From assembly GCA_011911785.1 (NCBI GenBank), contig GCA_011911785.1_4084.1: a stretch of DNA of 64,000 bases; one strand, written 5' to 3'. The notes under the pieces were generated by a model. That model was not told where the DNA came from. It saw only the letters and a list, made by a program, of their open reading frames with translations, and did no database searches. This document shows positions 2,416 through 19,554 of the stretch, one piece after another. The stretch's first letter is position 1. Each line of letters opens with the position of its first letter. A program made the position numbers and the translations under genes. The stretch is from a phage.

Positions 2416-3189
2416 ATGAACCGTACAGAGAAAGCAATCCAAATCGAAAAGAACTTCAACTCCATGATGGCAGCACTGGAATGTCTTCTTGATACACAAA
2501 CTAACTCTATCAACTCTCTGATCGTTTCTGGCAAGGGTGGTGTTGGTAAAACTTTCAACGTTGACCAACGGTTGCAGAAAGCTGATGACAACTTTGAAAT
2601 CGACTACAAGAAAATCAGTGGCAAAGTAACTACTGTTGGTCTGTACGAAGCACTGTATCGTTCACGTCACGCTGCTTCAGTACTGTTACTTGATGATGTT
2701 GATATCTTCTCTGATGAGACGAATATTGATTTGCTTAAAGCTGTATTGGATACTTCTGAGAAGCGTGTAGTATCTTACGCTACTTCTGCTAAGTACCTGG
2801 AACAGCAGGGTATCCCTAAGCAGTTTGAATTCCGTGGTAAAGTAATCTTCCTGACTAACAAAAACCTGTCACAGATTGCTAAAGGTAAAAGCAGTTTAGC
2901 ACCACACATTGATGCACTGATCACTCGTAGTATCTTTGTTGACCTGCAACTGTTCACCAACGAAGAAGTGATGATTCACATTGAGAACATCATGAACAAA
3001 ACTAACATCCTTGAAAACAATGGTGTTAACAAAAATGGTTGTAAAGCAATCCTGAACTGGATGCTGAGCAATGAAGACCGTCTGCGTAGTCCTTCACTGC
3101 GTATGCCAGTACTGATCGCTGGTCTTTACAATAAATTCCCATACGACTGGGAATCAATGGCTGAAAATATGTTCCTGGAGAAAAATTAA
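2416..3189 (+). CDS. P-loop NTPase, AAA+-like ATPase (257 aa)
   Basis: Walker A GKGGVGKT, Walker B LLLDDVD, sensor-1-like FLTNKN. Confidence 0.6.
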   Translation: MNRTEKAIQIEKNFNSMMAALECLLDTQTNSINSLIVSGKGGVGKTFNVDQRLQKADDNFEIDYKKISGKVTTVGLYEALYRSRHAASVLLLDDVDIFSDETNIDLLKAVLDTSEKRVVSYATSAKYLEQQGIPKQFEFRGKVIFLTNKNLSQIAKGKSSLAPHIDALITRSIFVDLQLFTNEEVMIHIENIMNKTNILENNGVNKNGCKAILNWMLSNEDRLRSPSLRMPVLIAGLYNKFPYDWESMAENMFLEKN

Positions 3190-3216
3190 TTGATAACATA
3201 TAACATCGATAAGGTC

Positions 3217-3408
3217 ATGTTATTATATGCATGTATTAACATGATTGTCGTTTTAGTTAAAGTTTATAGATGGTTTCATACACTTGATATTGATACTGAA
3301 AAGGAGTATAATCCTCAAGAAGCATCTCTTGGATTAAAAATTATTGTTTTAATTAGCGTAGTATCCGTATACATGGTATTACTATCAACTATGATTAAGT
3401 TCACTTAA
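3217..3408 (+). CDS. Small hydrophobic membrane protein (63 aa; track start 3190 is TTG)
   Basis: Hydrophobic ORF; first ATG with AAGG upstream. Confidence 0.3.
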   Translation: MLLYACINMIVVLVKVYRWFHTLDIDTEKEYNPQEASLGLKIIVLISVVSVYMVLLSTMIKFT

Positions 3409-3418
3409 CGAGGAACAT

Positions 3419-3751
3419 ATGATTAATTTATTTTCAACTGAGGTTATGATTAAAATTACATTAGTATACATGTGTCTATTCGTATACTACCACGCTCTCA
3501 TCGGAATCTTGTGGTTCTTTAAGAAAGGTCGTCTTCTTGAGAAATTGTACCCAGACTATATGATATTGTATACAATCGTCCAGGGTGTAGGAATAGTACT
3601 GGGAATTCTAGTGCACTTGATATATTTGTTTGAACCACACCTTCCGTGTATTACACAATACATTGTATTCGGAACTACTATTATGTGGCTTGTAATGATG
3701 GGTGTGTATGGTCTGTATTTGTACAGGAAACGTATAGTGGGAGATTTCTAA
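3419..3751 (+). CDS. Small membrane protein, WFFKxx paralog group (110 aa)
   Basis: RBS GAGGA; hydrophobic; motif LWFFKKGRL. Confidence 0.5.
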   Translation: MINLFSTEVMIKITLVYMCLFVYYHALIGILWFFKKGRLLEKLYPDYMILYTIVQGVGIVLGILVHLIYLFEPHLPCITQYIVFGTTIMWLVMMGVYGLYLYRKRIVGDF

Positions 3752-4104
3752 TGCAAGAGGTTATTAAATGGTTGACAACCAGTGATATTGCTAGTACACT
3801 GAACTATGTACTCATTATCTTATATCCGTTTTTGATGGTTCTAAACTTCATTGGATGGTATTTCAAACGTCCAATTTACTACAAGATTAATAATTCAGAG
3901 TACTATGAAAGTGTTGTAATTGCAACCTCAATCACGTATACTATGGGTGCAGTTCTTACAGTCATAGGATTAGGTCAAGGTGATAATCTTAACTTTATGC
4001 TATGTACCTTTGTTATGATATGTATTCCAACACTAATTGTAATTCTATCGAATATTGTGTGGAAAAAAATGTTATTTGCACGCAACAAAATACCGGAGGC
4101 ATAA
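3751..4104 (+). CDS. Small membrane protein, paralog (117 aa)
   Basis: TAATG overlap with upstream stop; motif GWYFKRPIYY; track start 3646 rejected. Confidence 0.5.
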   Translation: MQEVIKWLTTSDIASTLNYVLIILYPFLMVLNFIGWYFKRPIYYKINNSEYYESVVIATSITYTMGAVLTVIGLGQGDNLNFMLCTFVMICIPTLIVILSNIVWKKMLFARNKIPEA

Positions 4105-4761: not shown

Positions 4762-5144
4762 TGTACACAACAATATATGTTATTCTTAATATCCTAAGTG
4801 CATGTCTAACAATAGGTGCATTAATATACATTGGAAAGTTCTTTTGTGTAAAGTTCGTCGAAGATGTGTATGAGGATATTGAATACGACTACGAATCTAA
4901 GTGCTTCTTCCATGTTGGATATATCATTTGCTTAGTAACTACTATCTTCACATGGATTGTATACGTATTCGGGATTGGAATCACTTCAATTGGTGAACCA
5001 GTACTGTGCATTATTGGATTAGTGTTTTCTTCAATATTCGGGTTATTGTTCATGATTATTCTTATGTATAATTTAATCTGTACTGCTATTGTTCCTTTCT
5101 TTTATGAAATTCACAATAACATTAAACGTAAGAAACGAGGTTAA
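4761..5144 (+). CDS. Small membrane protein (127 aa)
   Basis: TAATG overlap; multiple hydrophobic segments. Confidence 0.5.
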   Translation: MYTTIYVILNILSACLTIGALIYIGKFFCVKFVEDVYEDIEYDYESKCFFHVGYIICLVTTIFTWIVYVFGIGITSIGEPVLCIIGLVFSSIFGLLFMIILMYNLICTAIVPFFYEIHNNIKRKKRG

Positions 5145-5146
5145 TT

Positions 5147-5500
5147 ATGTTTTCTCCTGCTGGTCAAGTTATATTCATGTTATGTACACTGGTATTCTTT
5201 ATGTTATCTGTACTACTTGTGATGAAATTCTTTCACATGAAACCATTCAGTACTTGGTATGATAATATTGTGTACTATATTGGTAATGCTATAACACTCT
5301 TTTCAGTTGCATACTATTTCGGTTATTTTGCAATGCTATTTGGGTTATTACTTGAAGCTCGTGCATTGCTTGTAGCTGGTATGGTGGCAGATTTAATGTG
5401 TCTAACACTAGCCTGTATTGGATTTACTGTATGTATGTCGTTAACCATTTTTGACAAATTATGTAAACTACACAAACGTTTAGGTGAGAGGATGAAATAA
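5147..5500 (+). CDS. Small membrane protein (117 aa)
   Basis: Hydrophobic ORF with RBS. Confidence 0.5.
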   Translation: MFSPAGQVIFMLCTLVFFMLSVLLVMKFFHMKPFSTWYDNIVYYIGNAITLFSVAYYFGYFAMLFGLLLEARALLVAGMVADLMCLTLACIGFTVCMSLTIFDKLCKLHKRLGERMK

Positions 5501-5883
5501 TGACTTACCGTGATTACTTTTGTATTTTTGAAATTGCAGTATTCGCTTTAGGTTCAGTCTGGTTACTTCTATACTACTTCTGTATTAATCCAGTATTCAA
5601 TTGGGTTCGTCGTGCTGAACAAAGTAGTGCTGGACAAATAGCAGTTGTTATGGGTATGACATATTATATGTTCGCCGTAGCTTCTGTTGTTATTGAAGTA
5701 ATATTTGGTGGCATGAATGGTGATGATGGGGCAACGTTCTATGGATTCGTAACATTCTTTAGTGTGCTGATTCCGTGTGGTGCTCTTATTATTACTGCGT
5801 TCTATTGGCTATATCGTGGTGTTAAGAAGCTGGAATCAATTCACGTAGATATGCGTTCAAAACGAATGGGGATTGACAAATAA
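5500..5883 (+). CDS. Small membrane protein (127 aa)
   Basis: Start overlaps upstream stop; hydrophobic. Confidence 0.5.
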   Translation: MTYRDYFCIFEIAVFALGSVWLLLYYFCINPVFNWVRRAEQSSAGQIAVVMGMTYYMFAVASVVIEVIFGGMNGDDGATFYGFVTFFSVLIPCGALIITAFYWLYRGVKKLESIHVDMRSKRMGIDK

Positions 5884-6434
5884 TGAAACGAAGTTCTAAT
5901 GTCATTCGTGAACGATTTCGTAAAGTAAAAACTATTAAGTACGGGACTATTGCTCTTGTACTTAGTAGTACTTTTATTATGACAGGATGTGAACGCTCTG
6001 AAGATATTTCTGTATATCAGAATGTGGACCAATGTAAAAGAAGTGGTAGCAATCCGGTACAATGTGAAGATGATTATAAAAAAGCCCTAACTGAATCGGA
6101 AAAGGTAGCACCAAAATATAGTTCACAGAGTGATTGCTCAAGCGATTTTGGTAATCAATGTCAACAACATAGTTCGGGATTCTTTTGGATTCCAATCATG
6201 AGCGGGTTCCATAGTAGTGGTAATGGGTTTGCTAGTCAACCACTATACAACTCTAAAGGGAACTACTATGATGCTGGTGGTAACTCCTACGGTAGCAGTA
6301 CTGCAAAAGGTACAACACGTACTGTATCAAGTTCCGCATTAGCTCCAAAACCTCCTACAACGACCACAATCACCCGCAATGGGTTTGGGTCTTCAATAGC
6401 CAGAAGTGCCGCTCACACGAGTTCTGGTGGATAA
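5883..6434 (+). CDS. Putative lipoprotein (183 aa), possibly YgiB/DUF1190-like
   Basis: Signal peptide + lipobox FIMTGC; Ser/Gly/Thr-rich C-terminus; YgiB resemblance is from memory, unverified. Confidence 0.5.
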   Translation: MKRSSNVIRERFRKVKTIKYGTIALVLSSTFIMTGCERSEDISVYQNVDQCKRSGSNPVQCEDDYKKALTESEKVAPKYSSQSDCSSDFGNQCQQHSSGFFWIPIMSGFHSSGNGFASQPLYNSKGNYYDAGGNSYGSSTAKGTTRTVSSSALAPKPPTTTTITRNGFGSSIARSAAHTSSGG

Positions 6435-6435
6435 T

Positions 6436-6465
6436 AAAAAAGCCCACTTAATGTGGGCTTTTTGT
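6436..6465. terminator. Bidirectional intrinsic terminator between convergent genes
   Basis: AAAAAGCCCAC-ttaat-GTGGGCTTTTT; A-run and T-run flank the hairpin. Confidence 0.75.
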
Positions 6466-9398
6466 TATTTGTGTTTTATGTGTAAAGTATCTAATATTGT
6501 ATTGAACAATGATTTAGCAGAAATCATGATTACTTGATCAAAATCTTTAGTATAAGAAATATTAGCAGTACTGGAAGAATCTTTCACCTCATCCGGTAAT
6601 GCATCAAACTCTTCTTTTTCCATAATCTTTTCAAGTTCTTCACGAGAAATGGCTTTTACGTTTTCAATAGTCCTTAGTTGTATATTATAATCTTTATAAT
6701 ACGAAACTAAGTTCGTTGCGTATGAACCATCTTTAGATGCTGTTCCAGTAAAATCATAACATCCTGTATCAGTACTAACCCAATCGATTTTCCCTGAGCT
6801 ACCACTATATACACCTTTGTTAAATTTAATATTAACAACATCGCCAATAGTTTTCAATATACCACCTTTACATTCATTAAATGCGTTTAATTGATAACTT
6901 GTAGTCATATAGAATTTCGGTTCTAATGTAACAGTATCACCTACAGTTGCTTTCATGTCAGAAACACTTAAGAACAATTCATTAAATCCTTTTGAATAAG
7001 TCTTGGTAATTGTTGTTCCATCCCTGTTAGTTACTGTGTATTCTAAGTCCAATTCACAAATACTATTCAATGATAAGTAAGGGATATCAAATTTATCAGT
7101 ACTAGCATCATAAGGACATCTTGATGATGGTAGTATACCAGTAGGGTTTGGTACGTATTGAACTTTTGTTAACTCATACCCGCTTGCATTCGCTGGTGTA
7201 ACTGTAATAGACGGTGTAGATATTCCTTTCATTCCACAGAAGTATATGTTATCTGGAAAATCATTTATTACGAAGTCAGTGACAGGAATATCATAAGTAT
7301 CTTTATCAGTCCAATTGAGAACAACATTAGAACTGGTTGGATCAACAATATGTTCACTAGAACCACAGAAATATACTGATTTGGTATTAGTAATCATTAG
7401 TAATGTTTTGGATGATGAGTTCAATTCAAGAACATCTTTCACTTCAAGACCAGATGGTAATGTCAATGGTAACTTCGTGAATGATGTTAAATCTTGTTCA
7501 TCTTTAACACCACTAGTCCCCGCCGGAAACTTACCTGAACCATAGAAAACACCTTTATTCGTCATGAAATACATGAACGGGGTTGATGTTCCTTTGTCAA
7601 ATAGTTTAATGTCATCACATGTTAAACCATCAGGTAAACTTACTTTAGATGGAGTTCTATAAACACCAGGCTTAATACCACCTTCACCATTACTTACATC
7701 ACCTAGTACATATAAATCTTTACCTAGTTTCAAGAACATTGATTTATTTTTAGCACACAAGAATGTATCATATGATTTATCATCAATTGGTAGCTTGGTA
7801 TATTCGGTGTATGTAGGTATTGAATCATCAATCCACGAACTATCACCACTAATGTAAATGTGATTGTTTCTGTCAATATAATATGAATACACATCAGTAC
7901 TGTTCATATATAAAGCATTTAGTGCATTTGTTTTCACTAAGTGATTGAACTTAAGAACTTGTTTTCCATCGTACTTATGGGAGTTGACACCAATATCACC
8001 ATTCAGGCTACTACCAAATGAATATATGTGACCACGTGGTAATAGAACTTGAACACCACTTTTGGTTAAATTATATTTGGAGTGCAAGAGATCGTTATAT
8101 ACAACTCTAACTTTCTTAAAGATATCAGTACATTCAATCCACGATTTAGATGGTGTACCATCCATTCCTATTATTGCTGGATCACCATAATAATAAGCTT
8201 TATTTTCATATGATATTTTAAAAGATGATTTACCATCTTTTGTATTAGCACTGAAATACACATCTTTACTATCTTTAATTGGATAAGTACTATTCTCTAC
8301 AAAAGTATTATATGAGATATCGTTGTTAGAACTATTAAGAACAAAAGAAGTAGATGTACTATTGGACTTATAGACTGCTACGGAAGATGTATCACTGAAA
8401 TCAATTTTAGTGAACGTATCTTTGTATGTTTCGTTTAATAATCCTACATAAAAAACATCAGTGCCATCAGTAACGAATATAGCATTTCTATTATTACATA
8501 AAGAAGTAATATTTTTTACTACTTTATTTGAATTATAGTTCGGTAACTTCTTTAATCCACGAACAAAATTATCACAAATAATACCAGTACCATAGAAGTT
8601 ATAATCTTTATCACAGTATATAAATGCTGTATCATATGGTGAAGTACTTAAATTCTTATAGAATGGGAATGGAGTGAATGTGAATTGTAGAACATTACGC
8701 AATTCCCCTACTGTCTCTGTTGGGAATTGTCTGTTTTTATTATTTCCAAGAAAAACAACTCTATCTGTTAGGTATGTGTACATAATTCCATATGGTTTTA
8801 CGTACAAGTCATTATATCCTAATGATAATTTAGTTGGTGATGTTAGTGGACCGGAATTTATTTTATTTTGGTTAAAAGAAAATTCATTTGAATTATAACC
8901 AGCCCCATATGTATTACCATCAGTACTTAAATAATATACAGTAGCTTCCCCTGCTCCAAGAAAAGTCTTTACATCAGTTGCTAACGTTTTTTTGAAAGTT
9001 GGATAAAATTTATTATATGTTCCCGTTCCCATCATCAGTTCACCATTGCGGTTATGACCACGAGCATATAGAATACCTTTGTCTGTATCTAAGAAGAACA
9101 TACCATTATATGTTTTGTAAATCTTACCTTTTGTAATATCGAAATTGGAAAAATCATCACTAATATCAATGAATATCGTCTCAAGGTTATTTTCAAGGGA
9201 GTTTAGAGATTTACCACAATACCATACTGAGTTATCTTTTTTAACAGCAACACAACCACACGGACTGGCATCAAAATATGTTACATCGGAAAGAACCAGA
9301 GATAAGTTCTTTGTACTGCAATAATTATCCATTGCATATAAATCGGAATCTTTAAGTATATATACGGAATTCCCTACCGCTTTAATCGAATTTATCAT
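6465..9398 (-). CDS. Large beta-propeller-like repeat protein, RCC1-like (977 aa), lacks the conserved N-terminus of the downstream paralogs
   Basis: Start moved to ATG with RBS GAGGAT (track start is TTG at 9488); Gly-rich repeats e.g. GHNRNGELMMGTG. Confidence 0.55.
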   Translation of the reverse strand: MINSIKAVGNSVYILKDSDLYAMDNYCSTKNLSLVLSDVTYFDASPCGCVAVKKDNSVWYCGKSLNSLENNLETIFIDISDDFSNFDITKGKIYKTYNGMFFLDTDKGILYARGHNRNGELMMGTGTYNKFYPTFKKTLATDVKTFLGAGEATVYYLSTDGNTYGAGYNSNEFSFNQNKINSGPLTSPTKLSLGYNDLYVKPYGIMYTYLTDRVVFLGNNKNRQFPTETVGELRNVLQFTFTPFPFYKNLSTSPYDTAFIYCDKDYNFYGTGIICDNFVRGLKKLPNYNSNKVVKNITSLCNNRNAIFVTDGTDVFYVGLLNETYKDTFTKIDFSDTSSVAVYKSNSTSTSFVLNSSNNDISYNTFVENSTYPIKDSKDVYFSANTKDGKSSFKISYENKAYYYGDPAIIGMDGTPSKSWIECTDIFKKVRVVYNDLLHSKYNLTKSGVQVLLPRGHIYSFGSSLNGDIGVNSHKYDGKQVLKFNHLVKTNALNALYMNSTDVYSYYIDRNNHIYISGDSSWIDDSIPTYTEYTKLPIDDKSYDTFLCAKNKSMFLKLGKDLYVLGDVSNGEGGIKPGVYRTPSKVSLPDGLTCDDIKLFDKGTSTPFMYFMTNKGVFYGSGKFPAGTSGVKDEQDLTSFTKLPLTLPSGLEVKDVLELNSSSKTLLMITNTKSVYFCGSSEHIVDPTSSNVVLNWTDKDTYDIPVTDFVINDFPDNIYFCGMKGISTPSITVTPANASGYELTKVQYVPNPTGILPSSRCPYDASTDKFDIPYLSLNSICELDLEYTVTNRDGTTITKTYSKGFNELFLSVSDMKATVGDTVTLEPKFYMTTSYQLNAFNECKGGILKTIGDVVNIKFNKGVYSGSSGKIDWVSTDTGCYDFTGTASKDGSYATNLVSYYKDYNIQLRTIENVKAISREELEKIMEKEEFDALPDEVKDSSSTANISYTKDFDQVIMISAKSLFNTILDTLHIKHK

Positions 9399-9618
9399 GT
9401 TTATATCCTCATAAATTGATACCAATTCTAATGTATTTACCCACTTAAAGTACAAAAAATGATCAATTAAATGGGGAATCTTTAACAAATGAATTCATGA
9501 TGTACTTGATGAATTGCCCATACCAACGGATTCCCCAGTCCCAGCATACCACATGGTATTATCGAACTTTTTTATCATTGTAGTATCATAACCACACCAA
9601 ACATCATCAACATTAGTA

Positions 9619-10971
9619 TTACAACAATTGTATTTCTGTGAGTGTTTGATATGTTGTACCGTTGTACACACCTCTCCAATATACCCTACCTTCAGTACTA
9701 ACCACTAATAGTCCATATGTTGTAAACCCAAGAGTACCACCAACATACATAGCATCTTTAATTCGAATACCAATGTCTTCATATGTAAATGAAGCGACTG
9801 CTCCCGCTTGCCACGAAGGACTAGCGTAGTAATCACTATAAACACCATGTGCTTTATATATTGATGTTGTTCCTGGTTCAAAAATTACAGTTCCACAGTA
9901 GTTCATTCGTATTTTAGTACTGGATGAAGTCGGTACATTTATACCTATGCCATCTTTTATCCCTGTAGTTAGGACGTTAAAACCACCCGCCACACGGTTG
10001 ACGTCATTCTCACCGATTAAAAACATACCAACGTTGTAGCCCATATAATATACACTGCTACTGCCATTCCAGAAAGAAAAACCACCACCATTACCACAGC
10101 GATATAGTTGTGAATTTGAGCAGTACATCATACCTTCGTTTGTCGCATCAAATTCATCTGCTGTTCCTATTGTAGCTACAGTAGTCCACGTTTTAATCAC
10201 TTGGTTTGTACTAGCTGGTGTTTGTATACCATATCGTATATTATATCCCTTACCAACGATTGTACCATCTTCTAATTTAGCATAAAGTACAGGTCTATTA
10301 CCAACAAAATACATATTATTGTGTGACATGTCTATTGTGCATCTTAATGAAACTACTTTTTGTGTCAATTGATTATCTTTAGTAAAAGAAGTAAAGTAGT
10401 AATCCGATGTTGAGTTGTTTATTAAACCTTGTATTGACAATCCCATATACCAGATTTCACCATTGCTGTTTAATGCTGCCAAAATACAACTATATTTTGA
10501 AGTGTATGCTGGTGATGTTGTTGAAGTTGCTGGTCCTTTATCATATCCACCACAGAATACCATCTCCACAACTTCACCTACGTTCGCAAAATAAGAAGAT
10601 ACATTGATAAAACCATTTGTTATAAAAGGTGCTGTATTCATACTTGAATGTGTGAATATCCCATTTGCATATACACCACAAAAATGATATGAACCATCAT
10701 TATCTTGGACTATTATTCCATTTGATAGTAACCAAAAATTGTTTACATTTTTTCTTACTAATTCAACTCCTGCACCATTGGTTGGTGTTATACCAAAAGA
10801 AACATATTTTGTTTGACCAATACCATATAAATTTCCATTAGTTGCTAGTATTGCACCAAACCAGTTCCCACCACCATTCCTATCATGACCCATACCAATG
10901 GAGTCGAATTTCTTTACAGTAGGAACTTCAACTTTATTCCCATACTCTAGCATTCTAACAAAAGGTAACAT
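9619..10971 (-). CDS. Beta-propeller-like repeat protein, paralog with N-terminus MLPFVRMLEYGN (450 aa)
   Basis: RBS AAGGAGG 5 nt upstream of ATG; track N-terminal extension rejected. Confidence 0.65.
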   Translation of the reverse strand: MLPFVRMLEYGNKVEVPTVKKFDSIGMGHDRNGGGNWFGAILATNGNLYGIGQTKYVSFGITPTNGAGVELVRKNVNNFWLLSNGIIVQDNDGSYHFCGVYANGIFTHSSMNTAPFITNGFINVSSYFANVGEVVEMVFCGGYDKGPATSTTSPAYTSKYSCILAALNSNGEIWYMGLSIQGLINNSTSDYYFTSFTKDNQLTQKVVSLRCTIDMSHNNMYFVGNRPVLYAKLEDGTIVGKGYNIRYGIQTPASTNQVIKTWTTVATIGTADEFDATNEGMMYCSNSQLYRCGNGGGFSFWNGSSSVYYMGYNVGMFLIGENDVNRVAGGFNVLTTGIKDGIGINVPTSSSTKIRMNYCGTVIFEPGTTSIYKAHGVYSDYYASPSWQAGAVASFTYEDIGIRIKDAMYVGGTLGFTTYGLLVVSTEGRVYWRGVYNGTTYQTLTEIQLL

Positions 10972-11002
10972 ATATCCTCCTTTATTCATTATATTATATT
11001 TA
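10972..11002 (-). promoter_or_regulatory. Conserved leader ATTAAATATAATATAATGAATAAAGGAGG (AT-rich box + RBS)
   Basis: Near-identical leader precedes all nine MLPFVRM paralogs; promoter identity not resolved. Confidence 0.5.
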
Positions 11003-11035
11003 ATCAAAAAAGAAAAGCCAGTACAGAGTACTGGC
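11003..11035 (-). terminator. Intrinsic terminator GCCAGTAC-tct-GTACTGGC + T-run
   Basis: 8-bp stem followed by TTTTCTTTTTT on minus strand. Confidence 0.7.
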
Positions 11036-11046
11036 ATTTAAAATAA

Positions 11047-12222
11047 TCAAAATGTAGGAAGTTTGAATTCTCTCATAACAGATGAACTGCTTGCAGATAC
11101 ATTATCTGGTGATTTCCCTGCGTAGTATAATTTATTATCAATGAACATATACAATGTTGCATCATTTCCTGCTACAAGCGATTCACTTTTCTTAAATTTA
11201 ACACCACTAGGTAAAATTGCTTCAACAAATGAACCTGATTCTCGTGTAGTATTATTTGCCAATTGACCATTGTTATTATAACCAGTACTATAAATTTTAC
11301 CTGAACTATAATATACGAGTCCACGAGTACTAGTGTTTTCTATTCGAATGAATTCACTATCATCTGGAACTGTCGTTGATAGTACTGGGTTTAACTTATA
11401 AGCAGATGATACATTATTATTACCCAATTGACCATAACCTTGAAAGCCTAGTGTATACATAGGACATGATTCTGGTGTACCTTTTGTTATAATACCAATA
11501 TAATTCGTACTACAAAAAATGTCTATTACTTCTGTAATAGGTGTACCCTTATATTGAACCCAAGGGAATACATACGATTGTTGCTTACCATTTCCCAAAG
11601 TACCGGAAGTTGTTGTCCCAGTACGCCACATTGTATCATCAAGTTTAATAATCCAGTTAGCTGTCGTTATCGATGAACAGAATTTTTTAACATTATCCAC
11701 TAAAAATGTAAATTGATTATAATATGATGCAGTGTTTATACCAAACTTAGCACCAGTATTATCACCTAACAAATATAAACTATTATCTGTACCTAAAATC
11801 AAAGCATAATCATAACCCACGTATATATCTTTAATTCTTGAAATTCCAAATTGTGTAAAATAGCTTGTACATTCTGTGAATGTTGTTATATTATTGGTTG
11901 TATTATTACCCAGCCATTTATCTAAACCACTATAAAAGAATCTATCATCATTTGTGCGTATTAGACAAAAAGCGTTCATTGTACTGCACCAAAAATCTTT
12001 AACATTGCTATATATTTTTGTCCATTCAGTTAGTGGATTAGTATGACCTAAACCAAAAATTCCACCATTCTGAAGACCAATAGCCCATATTGAACCATTT
12101 TTATCAAGCATCATTGTACATGTATGTGAATAACCACCCGATGGTGTAACTAATTTAACAAAATTGGGAATATATGGTAAAACTTTATTTCCATAATCCA
12201 ACATTCTAACAAAAGGTAACAT
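11047..12222 (-). CDS. RCC1-like repeat protein, MLPFVRMLDYGN paralog (391 aa)
   Basis: YGQLGNN RCC1-type motif; RBS AAGGAGG. Confidence 0.65.
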   Translation of the reverse strand: MLPFVRMLDYGNKVLPYIPNFVKLVTPSGGYSHTCTMMLDKNGSIWAIGLQNGGIFGLGHTNPLTEWTKIYSNVKDFWCSTMNAFCLIRTNDDRFFYSGLDKWLGNNTTNNITTFTECTSYFTQFGISRIKDIYVGYDYALILGTDNSLYLLGDNTGAKFGINTASYYNQFTFLVDNVKKFCSSITTANWIIKLDDTMWRTGTTTSGTLGNGKQQSYVFPWVQYKGTPITEVIDIFCSTNYIGIITKGTPESCPMYTLGFQGYGQLGNNNVSSAYKLNPVLSTTVPDDSEFIRIENTSTRGLVYYSSGKIYSTGYNNNGQLANNTTRESGSFVEAILPSGVKFKKSESLVAGNDATLYMFIDNKLYYAGKSPDNVSASSSSVMREFKLPTF

Positions 12223-12292
12223 ATTCCCTCCTTTATTCATTATACTATATTTAATCAAAAAGAAATGCCAGCATCAAGTACTGGCGAAATTA

Positions 12293-13483
12293 TTACAATT
12301 GTCTAGGTGTATCCAGAACATATCTATTTGTACTAGGACCACCATCATCATACGTTCCGGTTGAATATATATTTTTCATATCAGCAGTTAAAAATGTACG
12401 ATACGAACCTCTATATATTTTTATTTTATCATACATAGAATATGTTATTTGTGCTGGCAGTGGACATGCAGTAAATCTACCAATAGTAACATTAGAACCA
12501 ACACCCAATGTACCAGCATAACTACTCTCATTTAAACCAGTTGCATATACACCAGTACTCGTAACTAGTATACTAGATTGTGTTGGATATCCAGTATGGA
12601 TTGAATACAACGTGCCAGTTGGTAGAGTAGTACTATTATTTCCTAATACTGCTAGTGCTGTACTAGTCGTAGTGTTATTACCCCATGCACCATTCCTAGC
12701 TAAACCACCCACAAGGAACTGGCGTGCTCCTGTACTTGGATTTTCAACTAAAGCACTGACCGCACCACTTGAACAACCAGTGTATTGTAACGTTTTTGTA
12801 TATGTTGTACTTGGCTGATATAAAGTATATTCATTATAGGGAGTCCATGTGGTACTGGTACTTATACCTGACGTACCACCACCAATATATAAATTATTTT
12901 GTGTATCAAAAAACATTACACAGTTATTTGTTGACTGTATTTGTGCAATATCAACATTAGGCGTGACAGCTTTTACAAATGATCCATCTGTTATTTGTTG
13001 AGTACTACCAGTACCATCAGCGAATTGTCTAGCCCCACTCCAACCAGTACTCCATATTGTATTATTATCCATTAATACCGTAAACCACGTAGTACCTCCA
13101 TACATCTGTTTAATTGAAGTACTTGAACTTTGCGTGTACAAATTTTCAATATATTGGTTATAACTTAAAAACGTAGTAGTACTAGTTGGTAAACCAATAT
13201 GATCACCATATCCACAATAAAAATAATTTGAGTCATTATCTTTTACTAATAAAGTTCCTTGTGTAACCCAGCAATCATTAACGTTTTCTCTAATTAATGT
13301 CCATGATTTTAATGCAGTGTTGTTTCCCCTCCCAAATTTCCCAAAACTATTATCCCCACGTGCATATAGTTGACCATCCGTATACAGAACAACAACATCT
13401 AAATCAGTTGGGATTATTTTCTTAATTTGAAGTGGTACTGGGGTAATATTCCCATAATCAAATAATCTAACAAAAGGTAACAT
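12293..13483 (-). CDS. RCC1-like repeat protein, MLPFVRLFDYGN paralog (396 aa)
   Basis: GDNSFGKFGRGNN motif; conserved leader. Confidence 0.65.
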   Translation of the reverse strand: MLPFVRLFDYGNITPVPLQIKKIIPTDLDVVVLYTDGQLYARGDNSFGKFGRGNNTALKSWTLIRENVNDCWVTQGTLLVKDNDSNYFYCGYGDHIGLPTSTTTFLSYNQYIENLYTQSSSTSIKQMYGGTTWFTVLMDNNTIWSTGWSGARQFADGTGSTQQITDGSFVKAVTPNVDIAQIQSTNNCVMFFDTQNNLYIGGGTSGISTSTTWTPYNEYTLYQPSTTYTKTLQYTGCSSGAVSALVENPSTGARQFLVGGLARNGAWGNNTTTSTALAVLGNNSTTLPTGTLYSIHTGYPTQSSILVTSTGVYATGLNESSYAGTLGVGSNVTIGRFTACPLPAQITYSMYDKIKIYRGSYRTFLTADMKNIYSTGTYDDGGPSTNRYVLDTPRQL

Positions 13484-13516
13484 ATATTCCTCCTTTATTC
13501 ATTATACTATATTTAC

Positions 13517-13548
13517 CCCAAAAAGAAATGCCAGTATCAAGTACTGGC
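13517..13548 (-). terminator. Intrinsic terminator GCCAGTA-cttga-TACTGGC + U-rich tract
   Basis: Read directly on minus strand. Confidence 0.6.
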
Positions 13549-13554
13549 CTATAT

Positions 13555-14724
13555 TTAAACTGGTGAATCTAATACAAATTCTAAACTACTAATGCCACCA
13601 TATGTGACATTTGTCCCTGTGCTATATACAAAATTACCATCAGTTATATAAGTTCGGTTATACCCACCTGCCATCTGCGACTTACTATAATCAAACCCAT
13701 CAGGAACGATTGCTTTGGTATATACTAATGCATTATTAGATGTACCAATACCTAACATACCAGCTTCTGAAGATTTATTGTAGCCGCAACAATATATACC
13801 ATCTGTTGTAGCAATAACTTGGTTATAATATGAAGTAATGTTAGCAATGCTTACTACATCACCGGGTGGCATTAGTGAAGCAGTTTGAACCTCAAATGCT
13901 CTATAATCACTGAGAGAACCATTTATCCCATCTGCTTGTGCACCAAATATTCTCGAACCGCCATTTGCGATGATGGTTTTACCAGTGGGATCAGTACCAA
14001 TTGCCATTGCCATTGAAGTACTATTCTCCATATAGTACTTGATATTAATTGTATTTCTTAAGCTGGTAGGAGCACCATAATATATAGTATATAACTTACC
14101 TCCTGAACTTGTAACTGCATTTACTCTTCCTGTATAAAATAGCCATCCTTGGTTTGTAACATAACCGTGCATTAAATTACTTGCAAACAATTTAACAGGT
14201 AATTGATCTGCTGCGGTCGGAACAGTACTTTTGACGAATTTTCTAGCAACATTGTTAGTTGTTGTCCCATCACCCAACTGACCATCACCCCCTGCTCCAG
14301 TACTCCATATTGTTTGGTCTGTTAGTAATACACTTGTAGTCTGATAACTAACTGCTATATCTAATATTGGTAATGTTAACGTATCGAATGTTGGCATAGC
14401 AGAAGTCCATATTGATACTGCTGCCCCTGGCATACCAACAGTTGTTGAACTTCCACTGTACCATATTTCATCATTGCTTTTCTTAATAACTATCGACGTG
14501 GCTCCCATCCAAAAATCTTGAACATCAGAAGTGCTAAAAGTCCATGTAGTAACAATATTTTTGTGACCTAAACCCAAAAGACCATTTGCATTCTCACCAC
14601 GCACATATAAATCACCACTGTTTGTTAAAACAGCAACATTATAGTTGTTAGCTAGTATTTTTTTAATATTTGGTTTAGCAGGTGCAATATTCCCATACTC
14701 TAACATTCTTACAAAAGGTAACAT
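13555..14724 (-). CDS. RCC1-like repeat protein, MLPFVRMLEYGN paralog (389 aa)
   Basis: GDGQLGDG and GLLGLGH motifs; track start 14856 rejected. Confidence 0.65.
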   Translation of the reverse strand: MLPFVRMLEYGNIAPAKPNIKKILANNYNVAVLTNSGDLYVRGENANGLLGLGHKNIVTTWTFSTSDVQDFWMGATSIVIKKSNDEIWYSGSSTTVGMPGAAVSIWTSAMPTFDTLTLPILDIAVSYQTTSVLLTDQTIWSTGAGGDGQLGDGTTTNNVARKFVKSTVPTAADQLPVKLFASNLMHGYVTNQGWLFYTGRVNAVTSSGGKLYTIYYGAPTSLRNTINIKYYMENSTSMAMAIGTDPTGKTIIANGGSRIFGAQADGINGSLSDYRAFEVQTASLMPPGDVVSIANITSYYNQVIATTDGIYCCGYNKSSEAGMLGIGTSNNALVYTKAIVPDGFDYSKSQMAGGYNRTYITDGNFVYSTGTNVTYGGISSLEFVLDSPV

Positions 14725-14757
14725 AATTCCTCCTTTATTCATTATATTATATTTAAT

Positions 14758-14789
14758 CCAAATAAGAAAGCCAGTATCAAGTACTGGCT
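14758..14789 (-). terminator. Intrinsic terminator AGCCAGTA-cttga-TACTGGCT + U-rich tract
   Basis: Read directly on minus strand. Confidence 0.6.
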
Positions 14790-14794
14790 TTAAT

Positions 14795-15943
14795 TCATTG
14801 TATAAATGACATATCAACTTCGGTATATCTTGTAGTGTACTGCCCAGAACTTCCACCCATTACTAGATTGGAAAAACCAGTATAAAATAACTTACCTTCA
14901 TCTGTGAGAATCAAACTACCGATGTTATTCAGTACTAAACTGTAAGAACTATTAAAATTAGCATAGGACTGGGTATAATAGAACTGATTTGTAAGATTAC
15001 CAACACCCAATTGTCCACCAGTGTTAACCCCAGTTGCAAATATCGTAGTACCAAATCTGCGAATATGCGAGGCCATATTGCCGACGCAACAATGTACATT
15101 CTGAACATCCGAATTCAATAAAGTTGGTGTTGTGTATTGCTTAAGTGTTGTGCCTGTACCGAATTCATTACCATATGATACCCCATACTGTGTACCACAA
15201 GCGTACAATTTATTATCATCTTTAATAAAAAATGTACTCTGATAACTTACATCGACATCTATAACATTAGTCTGTATTCTAACAACTCCAGTACTAGCAG
15301 TTTGATTGCCTGTCCCTAACTGATAGTAAGTGTTAATACCACAACCCCATAATGTATTATCTTCTTTTAGGTATATGTTACCAACAGCTTTTTTTACCGA
15401 TGATATGGCTTCAATCTTAACAAAGGCGTTAAATGAATTTGTATTTGTGCCATTACCAAAAGATGATCTGGTTGATGTGCTGTTTGTTCCGCAGCAATAT
15501 AAAGTACCATCAGTTGTTATCAAATTCACTTTAAGATCACTGTAACTACTCATGTATTTTATATCAGAAACATTAATACCACTGGATGTTATCCATGAAG
15601 TACAATCTGTCCACGTGTTATAATATGCACCTGAACCAGAAAACGCACTCGGACTTCCTGTTATAAACACTTTTCCAGTACCGTCTTCTTCATATAATTG
15701 ACAACCACTACTGTTATTTTCCAAAAGAACTCTTTTAACATTAGTTGCACTAAGAATAAATTTACTTGACGATACACCAGTCCCCGTACCCTGACTGACT
15801 GCTGCTGAAGCATACAAATTTTTAGTGTATGTATCATGAAAATACATAGCACTACCACCGGAATATATTTTAAAACGTGTACTAGGATCTGGTGGAATTG
15901 GTGCAATATTCCCATAATCTAACATTCTTACAAAAGGTAACAT
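14795..15943 (-). CDS. RCC1-like repeat protein, MLPFVRMLDYGN paralog (382 aa)
   Basis: YYQLGTGNQ and GGQLGVGN motifs; track start 16105 rejected. Confidence 0.65.
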   Translation of the reverse strand: MLPFVRMLDYGNIAPIPPDPSTRFKIYSGGSAMYFHDTYTKNLYASAAVSQGTGTGVSSSKFILSATNVKRVLLENNSSGCQLYEEDGTGKVFITGSPSAFSGSGAYYNTWTDCTSWITSSGINVSDIKYMSSYSDLKVNLITTDGTLYCCGTNSTSTRSSFGNGTNTNSFNAFVKIEAISSVKKAVGNIYLKEDNTLWGCGINTYYQLGTGNQTASTGVVRIQTNVIDVDVSYQSTFFIKDDNKLYACGTQYGVSYGNEFGTGTTLKQYTTPTLLNSDVQNVHCCVGNMASHIRRFGTTIFATGVNTGGQLGVGNLTNQFYYTQSYANFNSSYSLVLNNIGSLILTDEGKLFYTGFSNLVMGGSSGQYTTRYTEVDMSFIQ

Positions 15944-16013
15944 AATTCCTCCTTTATTCATTATATTATATTTAATCCAAATAAGAAAGCCAGTATCAAG
16001 TACTGGCATTATG

Positions 16014-17123
16014 TTATTTTGGTAAATCAATTTTAGTAAAGACTGCAACATCCTCGCTTGCACCGGGAATGGCGTAATACGTTCCAGTACTATATACATC
16101 TCCATTTTTGGTTAATATTGAAGTCAAACCATCACTAAAAAGAACATCCCTAATCTCACTAACTTCAACGGGTAATTGTAAATTTGTAGCACTATATATA
16201 GCACCAGTTTGAGAATTGTTTAATCCCAAACCACGGTTCGCCCCAACACCCTTCTGATATGTACTGGTAATTACCATTTGTGTAGCAGTATTTAATGCAG
16301 GTGAATTCGTCATAAACAACGGAGAACTATTAGGAAAAGTACTTGCAGGAACTGCACGGAATGTAGTCGTGCCTGAACTAAGAAAGTTTGGAGTTTGACC
16401 ACATACGAAATATGATGTACCATTATAGTAATTAAATGCATTACCACCAATGGCTGCATCGATTACACCAGAACTACGTAATCCCCAAGTGTTAATTTGT
16501 GTTTGGTCCCCTGTACCATGCTGCCCACTGCTATTCCATCCAGAACTATATAGCTTATTATCTAATGTAATATACATACTATCATTTGCATTAGTCATTA
16601 CTTTACGCACGTTAGTAGCACATTGAGTTAATGTGTAAATCGATGATGAGCCAATACCTAAAGAACCACGATATCCATTATCTCCTGCACCATAGAGTAC
16701 TGAACTAGTGCTAAGTACAAATATTAAACCATTTGTACATACAATATTAGCAATTTCACTCACTGGTATAGCATTGGTAAACCAATTAGTCCTTTCAACT
16801 AATATAGTACTGTAAGAAGTAGTTGTAGAAGATGAGAACCAGTACGTTTCACCCGATGTCCATATCGTATTATCATTTTTAATAATAACAAGTGTACGAC
16901 CACCCACGAAAAAATTAGAAACATCTGAACTTACTAATATCCATGAAGATACCGTGTTGTTATTACCATTTCCAGATTCACCACCTTGATTTCTACCTAT
17001 GTAATATAAATCATGTGAATCAGTCAATAAGAATTGACCTTGTGTAGAAGCACCAACTTTAATTATATTTTTAGGACCAGGTACAATATTCCCATACTCT
17101 AACATTCTAACAAAAGGTAACAT
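16014..17123 (-). CDS. RCC1-like repeat protein, MLPFVRMLEYGN paralog (369 aa)
   Basis: SGQHGTGD motif; conserved leader. Confidence 0.65.
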   Translation of the reverse strand: MLPFVRMLEYGNIVPGPKNIIKVGASTQGQFLLTDSHDLYYIGRNQGGESGNGNNNTVSSWILVSSDVSNFFVGGRTLVIIKNDNTIWTSGETYWFSSSTTTSYSTILVERTNWFTNAIPVSEIANIVCTNGLIFVLSTSSVLYGAGDNGYRGSLGIGSSSIYTLTQCATNVRKVMTNANDSMYITLDNKLYSSGWNSSGQHGTGDQTQINTWGLRSSGVIDAAIGGNAFNYYNGTSYFVCGQTPNFLSSGTTTFRAVPASTFPNSSPLFMTNSPALNTATQMVITSTYQKGVGANRGLGLNNSQTGAIYSATNLQLPVEVSEIRDVLFSDGLTSILTKNGDVYSTGTYYAIPGASEDVAVFTKIDLPK

Positions 17124-17195
17124 AATTCCTCCTTTATTCATTATACTATATTTAATACAAATAAGAAAAGCCAGTACAGAGTACTGGCTATTATA

Positions 17196-18338
17196 TTATT
17201 TCCACGGTAGAAGTGAATCAGGAACTCTGGTTGGTACTCTAACGGCTGGAACATTTCCAAGTTCAGGTAAACCACTCATATACAAATTGTTATTTTCATC
17301 AATTATCATTGAATAGAAATTATCAATTACGAAGCCTGAAATTCGTCTTCCTTCTAATGCATCAAGAACCATTTCGGTGAAAGTTAGTATATTTTCGGAT
17401 GTTTGATTAACACCACATGCACCATAGGTATTTCGACCACAAGTATATAACTTATTATTATTTTTAACAACACATCCATTCCCTTCGTTGTTGGATAAAC
17501 CACCCACCAACTCTATTTCACCTTGGAATGATAAATTGGGAATTAATGTACTCATTGGTACTGCTGATACTCTACCTACACCAGCTTGACCATATGCATT
17601 TGGTGAAGCAACCTTCACTGAACCATCATTAAGAAATATATATGAAGTACGGTATGTATTTACAGCTTGTATAGCATTGGTGATCGTATTGTCTTTTGTA
17701 AAACTTAATATATTTGATGTTGTTGTACTACCAGGAGCAACAGTATTTCCTGCATACCAATAGGAGCCATCATCAAGTACTAACCCAGTACTGAGCAAAG
17801 AACAGCCATAACTTTTAACATTTTCTATAGTGCTGTATCTGAACGATGTGACATTAGCTGTTGACGCGTTACCAAATACACCACCTTCGCCAGCACCACA
17901 GTAGAACCATTTTCCATTTTTTAAAAATACACGCAAATTCTGCCCAACAGCAATACCATCAATATCATCAGCACTGACACCAAAATCAGTGAAGTACTGG
18001 GTTACATCAATCCAAACCCCATTTGTATTTGTTCCGATTTGTGGCATTACTATACTAGCACCTGTGAACCAAATAGTTCCATCATTCTTAATGGCAATGG
18101 AACCAAGAACACCACCCCAGTAACGTTCAATATTATTATTCACACGGGTCCATACGGTGGATGATTGTAATGAACCATTACCACCTTGTCCAAATGAAGA
18201 TGAACCATACCAGTACAAGTCACCATTAACATGCAAATAAAAACGAGTATTATAATTTGCTTGTAATCTATTTTTAAATAGAGGTTTTGGTTCTGGTGCT
18301 TCATTTCCATACTCTAACATTCTAGCAAAAGGTAACAT
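17196..18338 (-). CDS. RCC1-like repeat protein, MLPFARMLEYGN paralog (380 aa)
   Basis: YGQAGVGR motif; close paralog of 18412-19554. Confidence 0.65.
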   Translation of the reverse strand: MLPFARMLEYGNEAPEPKPLFKNRLQANYNTRFYLHVNGDLYWYGSSSFGQGGNGSLQSSTVWTRVNNNIERYWGGVLGSIAIKNDGTIWFTGASIVMPQIGTNTNGVWIDVTQYFTDFGVSADDIDGIAVGQNLRVFLKNGKWFYCGAGEGGVFGNASTANVTSFRYSTIENVKSYGCSLLSTGLVLDDGSYWYAGNTVAPGSTTTSNILSFTKDNTITNAIQAVNTYRTSYIFLNDGSVKVASPNAYGQAGVGRVSAVPMSTLIPNLSFQGEIELVGGLSNNEGNGCVVKNNNKLYTCGRNTYGACGVNQTSENILTFTEMVLDALEGRRISGFVIDNFYSMIIDENNNLYMSGLPELGNVPAVRVPTRVPDSLLPWK

Positions 18339-18411
18339 AATTTCCTCCTTTATTCATTATACTATATTTAATACAAATAAGAAAAGCCAGTACAGAGTAC
18401 TGGCTATTATA

Positions 18412-19554
18412 TTATTTCCACGGTAGAAGTGAATCAGGAACCCTTGTCGGTACATTTGTAGTAGACACCCCATCAAGATTTGGTACACCGCATGTATATA
18501 AATTATCAGCATCGTCAACTAACATCGTATAGTTATATCCCCTACAAAAACTACTAACATTACGACCTTCTAATGCAGTAAGAATCATTTCAGTGAATGT
18601 TGTTATATTTGTCGAGGTTGAACCAACACCACATTGTCCATTTGAATTAAGACCACATAAAAATAACTTATTATCATTTTTAATTATACAGGATGGTCCA
18701 GTAAGGTTTGTACCAAGCTCACCCACTAACTCTATTTCACCTTGGAATGCTAAATTTGGAATTAATGTACTCATAGGGGCTGGTGTTGTATTCCCAGTAC
18801 CTGCTTGACCACGTTCGTTGGAAGATGCAACTTTAACTGTTCCATCACTAAGAAATATATAGGAAGTTTCAATTGTATTGACTGCTTTAATTGCAGTGCT
18901 GATAGAAGTTTCTTGTGTAAATCTTAGCACGTTTTGTGCTGACGTTCCCGATATAAACGTATTACCTGCATACCAATATGTACCATCATTGAGTACTAAT
19001 GCAGTACTTCGAATTGCACAACCAGCACTTCGAACATTTTCTATAGTACTGTACGTGAATTGTGAAACGCTTGCCGATGAACCATTTCCGAATACACCAC
19101 CACTCCCAGCACCACAGAAGAACCACTTTCCATTTTTCAAAAATACACGCATACACGCAGATATAACAATACTATCAATATCATCAGCACTGACACCGAA
19201 ATCAGCAAAGTGCGATGTCACATCAACCCAAACACCGTTAGTGTTTGATGCAATTACTGGAATAACAGAACTTGTACCAGTGTACCAAATAGTACCATCT
19301 TTCTTTATCGCTATTGTTCCTTGAACACCACCCCAATATCGTACAACATTTGTATTGACGAGAGTCCATGCGGTTGAAGAGTTCAATGAACCATTACCAC
19401 CTTGACCATATGATGAAGAACCAAACCAATATAGATTACCATTGGTGTGTAAATAAAATTTGGCATCTGCCGAGCATTGTAACCTATTTTTTAATCGTGG
19501 TGCGGGTTCCGGTGCAATATTCCCGTACTCTAACATTCTTGCAAAAGGTAACAT
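18412..19554 (-). CDS. RCC1-like repeat protein, MLPFARMLEYGN paralog (380 aa)
   Basis: RGQAGTGN motif; RBS directly follows upstream stop, no terminator. Confidence 0.65.
   Translation of the reverse strand: MLPFARMLEYGNIAPEPAPRLKNRLQCSADAKFYLHTNGNLYWFGSSSYGQGGNGSLNSSTAWTLVNTNVVRYWGGVQGTIAIKKDGTIWYTGTSSVIPVIASNTNGVWVDVTSHFADFGVSADDIDSIVISACMRVFLKNGKWFFCGAGSGGVFGNGSSASVSQFTYSTIENVRSAGCAIRSTALVLNDGTYWYAGNTFISGTSAQNVLRFTQETSISTAIKAVNTIETSYIFLSDGTVKVASSNERGQAGTGNTTPAPMSTLIPNLAFQGEIELVGELGTNLTGPSCIIKNDNKLFLCGLNSNGQCGVGSTSTNITTFTEMILTALEGRNVSSFCRGYNYTMLVDDADNLYTCGVPNLDGVSTTNVPTRVPDSLLPWK

What the first reader, a model, noticed from the sequence alone, without database searches (positions are those of the whole stretch)
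9399..9705. Unusual junction between the 977-aa propeller gene and its upstream neighbour
The 220-bp gap between 9619 and 9398 is the only place in the array without the terminator-leader cassette. In the frame of gene 6465-9398 an open stretch reads ..NTNVDDVWCGYDTTMIKKFDNTMWYAGTGESVGMGNSSSTS and stops at 9495-9497, 30 codons before the RBS-backed ATG at 9398. This looks like a decayed repeat unit or an ancestral N-terminal extension.
Basis: inference. Interest (0 to 1): 0.35.

Follow-up and report, generated by a model that had tools for sequence, protein, structure and literature searches.

The report
Deletion relic of a lost propeller gene
The odd 220-base gap is the non-coding wreck of a whole RCC1-like propeller gene, which two deletions cut down to about 157 bases in this jumbo coliphage; it is an ordinary pseudogene remnant, not part of either neighbouring gene.

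Summary
The gap 9399-9618 exists, the quoted peptide reads as stated, and a TGA lies at 9497-9495 in the frame of the 977-aa gene.

It is not an N-terminal extension of that gene, and not an assembly frameshift. A near-identical relative (Logan contig L008, 977-aa protein 99% identical) carries a complete 385-codon RCC1-like paralog ("geneB") between the same two genes. GeneB is the ortholog of phage 121Q gp235/234.

The window aligns to L008 in three collinear blocks, which define two deletions:
- **Deletion 1 (290 nt).** It lies between 12-nt direct repeats TGTAATACTAAT. It removed the upstream gene's terminator, geneB's leader and ribosome-binding site, and codons 1-63.
- **Deletion 2 (811 nt).** It removed codons 106-375. 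The TGA is made by this junction: TG of a Trp codon plus an A from the 3' end.

What remains is geneB codons 64-105 (9623-9496), its last nine codons plus stop (9495-9467), and the native 68-nt spacer with the ribosome-binding site of the 977-aa gene.

The same junctions occur in phage A4 and two other assemblies. A4 and L006 carry indels that break the frame. Another relative (L007) lost geneB through a different single deletion and kept the terminator. This is an ordinary gene relic of low interest.

The parts
9619..10971 (-). geneA: complete 450-aa member of the MLPFVRML-headed paralog array. Its stop codon TAA is at 9621-9619.
   Evidence: ORF and start motif. Orthologs in EC.P1, Turkey3 and L008 have the same length and end at the same stop.
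9612..9623 (-). Junction 1: a single copy of the 12-nt repeat TGTAATACTAAT. In L008 it occurs twice (1674-1685 at the end of geneA, 1964-1975 inside geneB). The 290 nt between the two copies are deleted here.
   Evidence: The blocks window 9800-9612 = L008 1497-1685 and window 9623-9496 = L008 1964-2091 overlap by these 12 nt. The L008 sequence shows both copies.
9496..9623 (-). geneB relic, part 1: codons 64-105 plus the first two bases (TG) of Trp106 of the lost RCC1-like paralog.
   Evidence: 97.7% identical over 128 nt to L008 1964-2091. 63% amino-acid identity to 121Q gp235/234. Aligns to residues ~66-106 of the window's paralogs.
9495..9497 (-). TGA created by junction 2: TG from geneB's Trp106 codon (TGG) plus the A of AATTC from geneB's 3' end. 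L008 2092-2902 (811 nt) are missing between them.
   Evidence: Block boundaries window 9496 | 9495 = L008 2091 | 2903, with no overlap. L008 reads ...ACATCATGGGCATC... and ...CCAGTAATTCATTTG....
9467..9495 (-). geneB relic, part 2: the last nine codons plus stop of geneB (NSFVKDSPI* in L008). It carries a derived 1-nt deletion (TTCACCC to TTCCCC). The original stop TAA is at 9469-9467.
   Evidence: Window 9495-9300 = L008 2903-3099, 98% identical with one gap. The C-terminus matches 121Q gp234 ...VFVKDSPF*. The A is present in L006, L007 and L008.
9399..9466 (-). Native 68-nt spacer upstream of the 977-aa gene, with GAGGA at 9410-9406. It has no hairpin terminator.
   Evidence: The same 68-nt spacer lies between the geneB stop (L008 2932) and the ATG (L008 3001). 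It is conserved in A4, L006, L007 and L009. No terminator was found.
6465..9398 (-). 977-aa RCC1-like-domain gene. It is intact and under purifying selection, and starts at ATG 9398. It is not part of the relic.
   Evidence: ORF. PF25390 match at E=1.6e-15. Homologs of 977/977/969 aa begin at the same ATG. dN/dS is 0.12-0.20.

Best explanation
The 220-nt gap is what remains of a whole gene. The ancestor had geneA, then a terminator plus leader, then geneB, then a 68-nt spacer, then the 977-aa gene. GeneB was a 385-codon RCC1-like propeller with the array's usual MLPF... N-terminus, and it is the ortholog of the last array gene of 121Q and PBECO4.

Two deletions destroyed geneB in the lineage of the window:
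1. A 290-nt deletion lies between two copies of the 12-nt direct repeat TGTAATACTAAT. One copy spans the stop codon of geneA and the other sits at geneB codons 64-67. The deletion removed geneA's hairpin terminator, geneB's leader and ribosome-binding site, and codons 1-63.
2. An 811-nt deletion without microhomology removed codons 106-375.

The survivors are codons 64-105, the last nine codons plus stop, and the native spacer. The TGA at 9497-9495 was made by junction 2. The relic has no start codon with a ribosome-binding site and is not translated. It is drifting neutrally.

Shown: the collinear mapping, the junction sequences, and the polymorphisms. Inferred: the mechanism (slippage or illegitimate recombination at the direct repeat). 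Also inferred is the one functional consequence. Because geneA's terminator is gone, transcripts of geneA should now read through into the 977-aa gene, which is still translated from its own GAGGA-ATG.
For: - **Full-length parent gene in situ.** L008 has the order geneA (450 aa), terminator/leader, geneB (1774-2932), 68-nt spacer, 977-aa gene (99% identical).
- **Three collinear blocks.** The window maps to L008 at 97.7-98.9% identity, with a 12-nt overlap at junction 1 and a blunt junction 2.
- **Orthology.** Repaired L008 geneB is 65% identical over its full length to 121Q gp235/234. It passes the Pfam RCC1 and RCC1_2 thresholds. In 121Q and PBECO4 this gene occupies the same terminal array position.
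- **Breakpoint.** Homology of geneA to EC.P1 and Turkey3 stops 2-3 nt after the TAA, where those phages continue with the hairpin terminator.
- **Independent assemblies.** Identical junctions are present in A4, L006 and L009.
- **Neutral drift.** A4 lacks one A in the A-run. L006 keeps an extra A in relic part 2, so the frames differ. Of 4 substitutions, 3 are non-synonymous.
- **Separate loss in L007.** L007 lost geneB by a different deletion of about 1.2 kb and kept the terminator.
- **No RNA signal.** RNA folding gives z = -0.66 and there is no Rfam hit above threshold.
Against: - No genome with only one of the two deletions was found, so the order of the events, or a single complex event, cannot be resolved.
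- Junction 2 shows no microhomology, so its mechanism is unknown.
- L008, L006, L007 and L009 are automated short-read assemblies of public runs, not finished genomes.
- GeneB in L008 is itself frameshifted, so a fully intact parent has not been seen.
- Read-through transcription into the 977-aa gene is inferred only from the absence of a hairpin.
Confidence: 0.9

Rival explanations
1. Ancestral N-terminal extension: the fragment and the 32 codons after it once formed the N-terminus of the 977-aa protein. A Trp-to-stop mutation then cut it off, and translation now restarts at the internal ATG 9398.
For: The fragment is in the frame of the 977-aa gene and the 32 intervening codons are open. The TGA aligns with a Trp codon of 121Q gp234. 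The 977-aa protein also has an RCC1-like domain and lacks the MLPF N-terminus.
Against: - In L008 the parent gene ends at its own TAA, 68 nt before the ATG.
- The 32 codons are geneB's C-terminus read out of frame, plus spacer.
- The shared frame depends on a derived 1-nt deletion that is absent in L006, L007 and L008.
- The TGA is a deletion junction.
- L007 has a terminator directly upstream of the same spacer.
- There is no similarity between the 977-aa protein and geneB beyond generic repeats (E=0.33).
Confidence: 0.02
2. C-terminal blade of geneA cut off by a frameshift. The frameshift could be a sequencing error, a mutation, or a programmed +1 shift at ...TTG TAA T..., possibly followed by TGA read-through to fuse with the 977-aa gene.
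For: The fragment begins one base out of frame right at geneA's stop codon. The text ...TEIQLL|NTNVDDVWCG... looks like a continuing blade.
Against: - GeneA orthologs in EC.P1, Turkey3 and L008 have the same length and the same stop, followed by a terminator.
- The fragment is codons 64-105 of another gene.
- Frame-breaking indels in A4 and L006, and the complete absence of the fragment in L007, rule out conserved recoding.
- Four independent assemblies share the junction.
Confidence: 0.01
3. Ectopic 'filler' DNA: a break at geneA's palindromic terminator was repaired by copying about 125 nt from a geneB-like gene elsewhere, or from a co-infecting phage. On this view the L007-like state (terminator present) is ancestral.
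For: Compared with L007, the window differs almost exactly by replacement of the hairpin with the fragment. Short homologies flank the fragment.
Against: - L008 shows the whole geneB in place, with all three window blocks collinear. This includes the 29-nt 3' end that L007 also retains.
- L007 therefore once had geneB too.
- GeneB sits at this array position in 121Q and PBECO4.
- A4 has no other geneB copy to serve as template.
Confidence: 0.03
4. The relic is retained because it functions in cis, for example as an RNA element, promoter or spacer controlling the 977-aa gene.
For: It is 96-99% conserved among four genomes, including L006, whose 977-aa allele is only 83% identical. Loss of the terminator must change transcription of the 977-aa gene.
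Against: - That conservation equals the conservation of the flanking backbone.
- RNA folding is no better than shuffled sequence (z = -0.66).
- Rfam gives only a sub-threshold chance hit.
- No above-background promoter signal was found.
- L007 and L008 express the same gene family without this arrangement.
Confidence: 0.04

Closest known systems
Escherichia phage 121Q gp235/gp234 (YP_009101822/YP_009101821) and PBECO4 gp296: the last 'regulator of chromosome condensation' paralog of the Asteriusvirus array
   Same: Ortholog of the parent gene. It holds the same terminal position in the array. It is 63% identical in amino acids to the relic and 65% identical over the full length to L008 geneB. 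It has the same C-terminus ...FVKDSP(F/I)*.
   Different: There the gene is full length and broken only by a 1-nt insertion near codon 70. Here only 157 of 1158 nt survive. In 121Q it is followed by convergent gp233, not by the 977-aa gene.
Deletion between short direct repeats (replication slippage or illegitimate recombination), the classic route to gene loss in phage and bacterial genomes (general knowledge)
   Same: Junction 1 keeps one copy of a 12-nt repeat that occurs twice, 290 nt apart, in the undeleted relative.
   Different: Junction 2 has no repeat at all. The mechanism itself was not observed.
Tandem RCC1-like paralog arrays of Asteriusvirus jumbo phages (phAPEC6: eleven RCC1-like proteins, several listed in the virion proteome table as 'DNA condensation protein'; PMC7247149)
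   Same: The window's array of genes, each headed by MLPF..., a terminator and a leader, is this array. The relic is one of its members.
   Different: The literature discusses expansion by duplication. This locus documents the opposite process, the loss of a member, in at least four different ways in different lineages.

Membership tests
RCC1-like repeat beta-propeller (Pfam PF00415 / PF13540 / PF25390) | The parent protein matches RCC1 repeat models above the curated thresholds. | tested here: met
   Repaired L008 geneB scores RCC1 27.6 bits (cut-off 21.7), RCC1_2 26.7 bits (cut-off 22), and WD40_RLD at E=1.9e-18 covering residues 15-162.
RCC1-like repeat beta-propeller (Pfam PF00415 / PF13540 / PF25390) | The fragment itself matches a repeat model. 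| tested here: not met
   The 42-aa peptide gives 0 Pfam families at E<=1. Its assignment rests on 97.7% nucleotide identity to geneB codons 64-105 and on blastp to paralogs at E=8e-8.
Asteriusvirus MLPF-headed paralog array member (functional gene) | An MLPF(V/A)RM... N-terminus preceded by the hairpin terminator plus AAAGGAGG leader cassette. | tested here: not met
   Both were removed by deletion 1. They are present upstream of geneB in L008 and at eight other array genes of the window.
Asteriusvirus MLPF-headed paralog array member (functional gene) | An uninterrupted ORF of about 380-450 codons. | tested here: not met
   Only 42 + 10 codons remain, in different frames.
Pseudogene relic produced by deletion | Collinear blocks against an undeleted homolog at the same locus. 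| tested here: met
   The three blocks are L008 1497-1685, 1964-2091 and 2903-3099. The same blocks appear in A4, L006 and L009.
Pseudogene relic produced by deletion | Frame-indifferent drift: indels, and no excess of synonymous change. | tested here: met
   A4 has a 1-nt deletion, and the window, A4 and L009 differ from L006 by a 1-nt indel. Three of 4 substitutions are non-synonymous. The numbers are too small for a statistical test.
Programmed recoding site (+1 frameshift or stop read-through) | The frame relationship and the site are conserved in relatives. | tested here: not met
   The frames differ in A4 and L006, and the segment is absent in L007.
Cis-regulatory RNA (Rfam families) | A match above the gathering score, or stability beyond shuffled sequence. 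| tested here: not met
   The only match is Noro_CRE at 20 bits against a gathering score of 35, on the opposite strand. Folding gives z = -0.66.

The most novel reading that the evidence does not exclude
GeneB is hit by a different lesion in every lineage examined. The 121Q/PBECO4 group has a 1-nt insertion near codon 70. L008 has a 1-nt insertion in codons 34-53. The window, A4, L006 and L009 have two deletions. L007 has one deletion of about 1.2 kb. This could mean that loss of this particular propeller is selected, for example because its product is recognised by a host defence or competes with the neighbouring hypervariable 977-aa protein. On that reading the relic marks an adaptive gene loss that also fuses geneA and the 977-aa gene into one transcription unit.
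Probability: 0.1. Interest if true: 0.35.

Novelty: new member of a known kind. Interest (0 to 1): 0.13.

Why it matters
It matters little beyond annotation. The 220-nt gap should be annotated as a gene remnant. It should not be merged with either neighbour, and no recoding or assembly error needs to be invoked.

The locus is a tidy natural series showing how members of the Asteriusvirus RCC1-like array are lost: frameshift, then partial deletion, then clean deletion. It also shows that the junction state and the 977-aa allele are reshuffled by recombination between otherwise near-identical phages. This may help anyone studying turnover of these virion-associated paralogs.

Tried and rejected
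**My own hypotheses, rejected**
- My first reading was that the fragment is the last blade of geneA after a +1 frameshift. I rejected it once the orthologs showed the same stop.
- My second reading was an in-frame N-terminal extension of the 977-aa gene with a TGG-to-TGA point mutation, supported by the Trp alignment with 121Q. I rejected it once L008 showed that the TGA is a deletion junction and that the 'open' codons are geneB's C-terminus plus spacer.
- I also considered a second terminator (TERM2) upstream of the 977-aa gene, and filler-DNA repair at the hairpin. Both were rejected by L008, which has a 68-nt hairpin-less spacer and all blocks collinear.

**Searches that found nothing**
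- The exact 36-mer of the spacer in IMG/VR.
- A 27-mer of the spacer in JGI metagenomes.
- The 44-aa relic peptide in the 5.8-billion-protein database; no candidate shared enough words.
- Rfam at E<=1 gave one sub-threshold chance hit.
- RNA folding gave z = -0.66.
- The sigma-70 promoter scan was no richer than shuffled sequence: 79 sites against 78.7 expected.
- tblastn of the 977-aa protein found only A4 among 50,697 phage records.
- blastp of the 977-aa protein and of the convergent 183-aa protein against 121Q gp234/gp233 showed no meaningful similarity.

Full report
**Context.** The window comes from an Asteriusvirus-type jumbo coliphage. Over 6400-11100 it is 98.8% identical to Escherichia phage A4 (ON286972.1), and it shows partial matches to EC.P1, Turkey3, WPEC3, PBECO4 and 121Q.

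On the minus strand, 6465-20499 holds an array of beta-propeller genes. Nine of them start with MLPF(V/A)R... Eight of those nine are preceded by a conserved cassette: a hairpin (GCCAGTAC-loop-GTACTGGC) with a T-tract, then ...TTAAATATAGTATAATGAATAAAGGAGG...ATG. Pfam identifies the members as RCC1-like, and the first one as Kelch-type. Such arrays are known. phAPEC6 has eleven RCC1-like proteins, and several are listed in its virion proteome table as 'DNA condensation protein' (PMC7247149).

**Checking the observation.**
- The upstream gene ("geneA", 9619-10971) ends at TAA 9621-9619.
- The 977-aa ORF starts at ATG 9398 behind GAGGA (9410-9406), so the gap is 220 nt.
- In the frame of the 977-aa gene the gap reads ...CCNTNVDDVWCGYDTTMIKKFDNTMWYAGTGESVGMGNSSSTS*, with TGA at 9497-9495. 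Then 32 open codons (not 30) lead to the ATG.
- No terminator-like hairpin lies in the gap.
- The claim that this is the only cassette-less junction is not exact. The junction 19555-19566 is 12 nt long and has only a ribosome-binding site.

**Is the fragment a propeller repeat?** Yes.
- blastp against the window's paralogs gives E down to 8e-8. In five paralogs the best match falls at residues ~66-106, the second blade region, and not at the C-terminus.
- Against 50,697 phage records, the fragment matches 121Q gp235/234 and PBECO4 gp296 outside A4. The match is 63% amino-acid identity at E=5e-5 and 74% nucleotide identity. This gene is the last one of their arrays.
- The TGA aligns with a Trp codon there.

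**Where homology breaks.** GeneA orthologs in EC.P1 and Turkey3 have the same length. They are about 93% identical up to 2-3 nt past the TAA and then continue with the standard terminator and leader. The window continues with the fragment instead. GeneA is therefore complete, and a breakpoint lies at about 9617-9612.

**The decisive relatives.** The 977-aa protein has only three homologs in the 5.8-billion-protein set, at 99%, 83% and 64% identity. I fetched their contigs, plus one encoding the identical protein.

L008 (99% allele) carries the following order: geneA, a terminator and leader, a paralog at 1774-2932 ("geneB"), a 68-nt spacer, then the 977-aa gene. GeneB is 385 codons long once one extra base is removed.

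Repaired geneB is collinear with 121Q gp235/234 and 65% identical to it. It passes the Pfam RCC1 and RCC1_2 thresholds.

The window maps onto L008 in three collinear blocks:

| Window | L008 | Identity | Content |
|---|---|---|---|
| 9800-9612 | 1497-1685 | 98.9% | end of geneA, stop, repeat |
| 9623-9496 | 1964-2091 | 97.7% | geneB codons 64-105 plus TG of Trp106 |
| 9495-9300 | 2903-3099 | 98.0% | geneB 3' end, spacer, start of the 977-aa gene |

- Blocks 1 and 2 overlap by the 12 nt TGTAATACTAAT, which occurs twice in L008. Deletion 1 (290 nt) therefore lies between direct repeats. It removed geneA's terminator, geneB's leader and ribosome-binding site, and codons 1-63.
- Blocks 2 and 3 abut without overlap. 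Deletion 2 removed 811 nt (L008 2092-2902).
- The TGA is TG of Trp106 joined to the A of ...AATTCATTTG.... It is a junction product, not a point mutation.
- Window 9495-9467 is geneB's C-terminus (NSFVKDSPI* in L008; compare ...VFVKDSPF* in 121Q) with one base lost.
- Window 9466-9399 is the native spacer of the 977-aa gene.

**Independent support.**
- A4, L006 and L009 have exactly the same three blocks, so the junctions are real and not an assembly artefact.
- The relic drifts without regard to frame. A4 lacks one A of the A-run. L006 retains the A in relic part 2, as do L007 and L008, so in L006 the fragment is not in frame with the 977-aa gene. Three of the four substitutions are non-synonymous.
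- L007 (64% allele) lost geneB by a different single deletion of about 1.2 kb. There geneA's terminator T-tract is joined to the same geneB 3' end at TTTGT.
- GeneB is also frameshifted at different sites in L008 (codons 34-53) and in the 121Q/PBECO4 group (about codon 70).
- The gap shows no RNA structure signal (z = -0.66) and no Rfam family.

**The 977-aa gene is a separate, functional gene.**
- ATG 9398 and the GAGGA are conserved in all relatives.
- dN/dS is 0.12-0.20 at dS 0.9-1.4.
- The flanks are 93-100% identical, so old alleles are exchanged within a conserved backbone.
- The relic state is shared by genomes with 83%-divergent alleles, while L008, with a 99% allele, lacks the deletions. 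Recombination must therefore occur between the relic and the gene body.

**Verdict.** The finding is a real but ordinary feature: a two-deletion relic of a lost array member. The 'decayed repeat unit' reading is right. The 'N-terminal extension' and 'assembly frameshift' readings are not.

The only inferred functional consequence is loss of the terminator between geneA and the 977-aa gene, which was not tested. Confidence in the deletion-relic explanation is about 0.9. The main residual uncertainty is reliance on automated assemblies and the unresolved order and mechanism of the two deletions.

Noticed in passing
window 6465-9398 (-); L006 1584-4517; L007 1464-4373; L008 3001-5934: The 977-aa RCC1-like-domain gene is a hypervariable island. 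Its alleles are 99%, 83% and 64% identical in amino acids, with dS 0.9-1.4 and dN/dS 0.12-0.20. The backbone on both sides is 93-100% identical. Only six genomes carry the gene, and tblastn finds no hit in other phages. It lacks the MLPF N-terminus of the array. This looks like allele swapping at a host-interaction gene.
   Followed up: partly
window ~8468 (-); L001 (A4) 5633-5646: Phage A4's copy of the 977-aa gene has a 4-nt tandem duplication (GATG GATG). It splits the gene into A4_237 and A4_236. The gene is intact in the window and in L006-L009.
   Followed up: yes
L004 (121Q) 2810-3962; L005 (PBECO4) ~4950-6101; L008 1774-2932: The last MLPF paralog (geneB) is broken differently in each lineage. 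The 121Q/PBECO4 group shares a 1-nt insertion near codon 70, seen in many independent genomes. L008 has a 1-nt insertion in codons 34-53. Both halves otherwise stay open. This could be recurrent loss or tolerated split expression.
   Followed up: partly
window 19555-19566 (-): The junction between the Kelch-type first array gene (19567-20463) and the next RCC1-like paralog is only 12 nt (TATGGAGGAATT) and has no terminator. It is a second cassette-less junction, suggesting that this pair is co-transcribed.
   Followed up: no
window 10971, 12222, 13483, 14724, 15943, 17123, 18338, 19554, 20463 (starts, - strand): All array members, including the Kelch-type one, share the N-terminus MLPF(V/A)R(M/L)(L/F)(E/D)(Y/F)GN. 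The upstream cassette is 85-91% conserved across phages. This suggests a common anchoring or targeting module fused to different propellers. Some paralogs are listed in the virion proteome of phAPEC6 (PMC7247149).
   Followed up: no
window 5883-6434 (+) and 6437-6463: The convergent 183-aa gene is lipoprotein-like and carries DUF1190 (PF06693). It accompanies the 977-aa gene in all six genomes. It replaces the unrelated gp233/gp297 found at this position in 121Q and PBECO4. A bidirectional hairpin terminator separates the two genes.
   Followed up: partly
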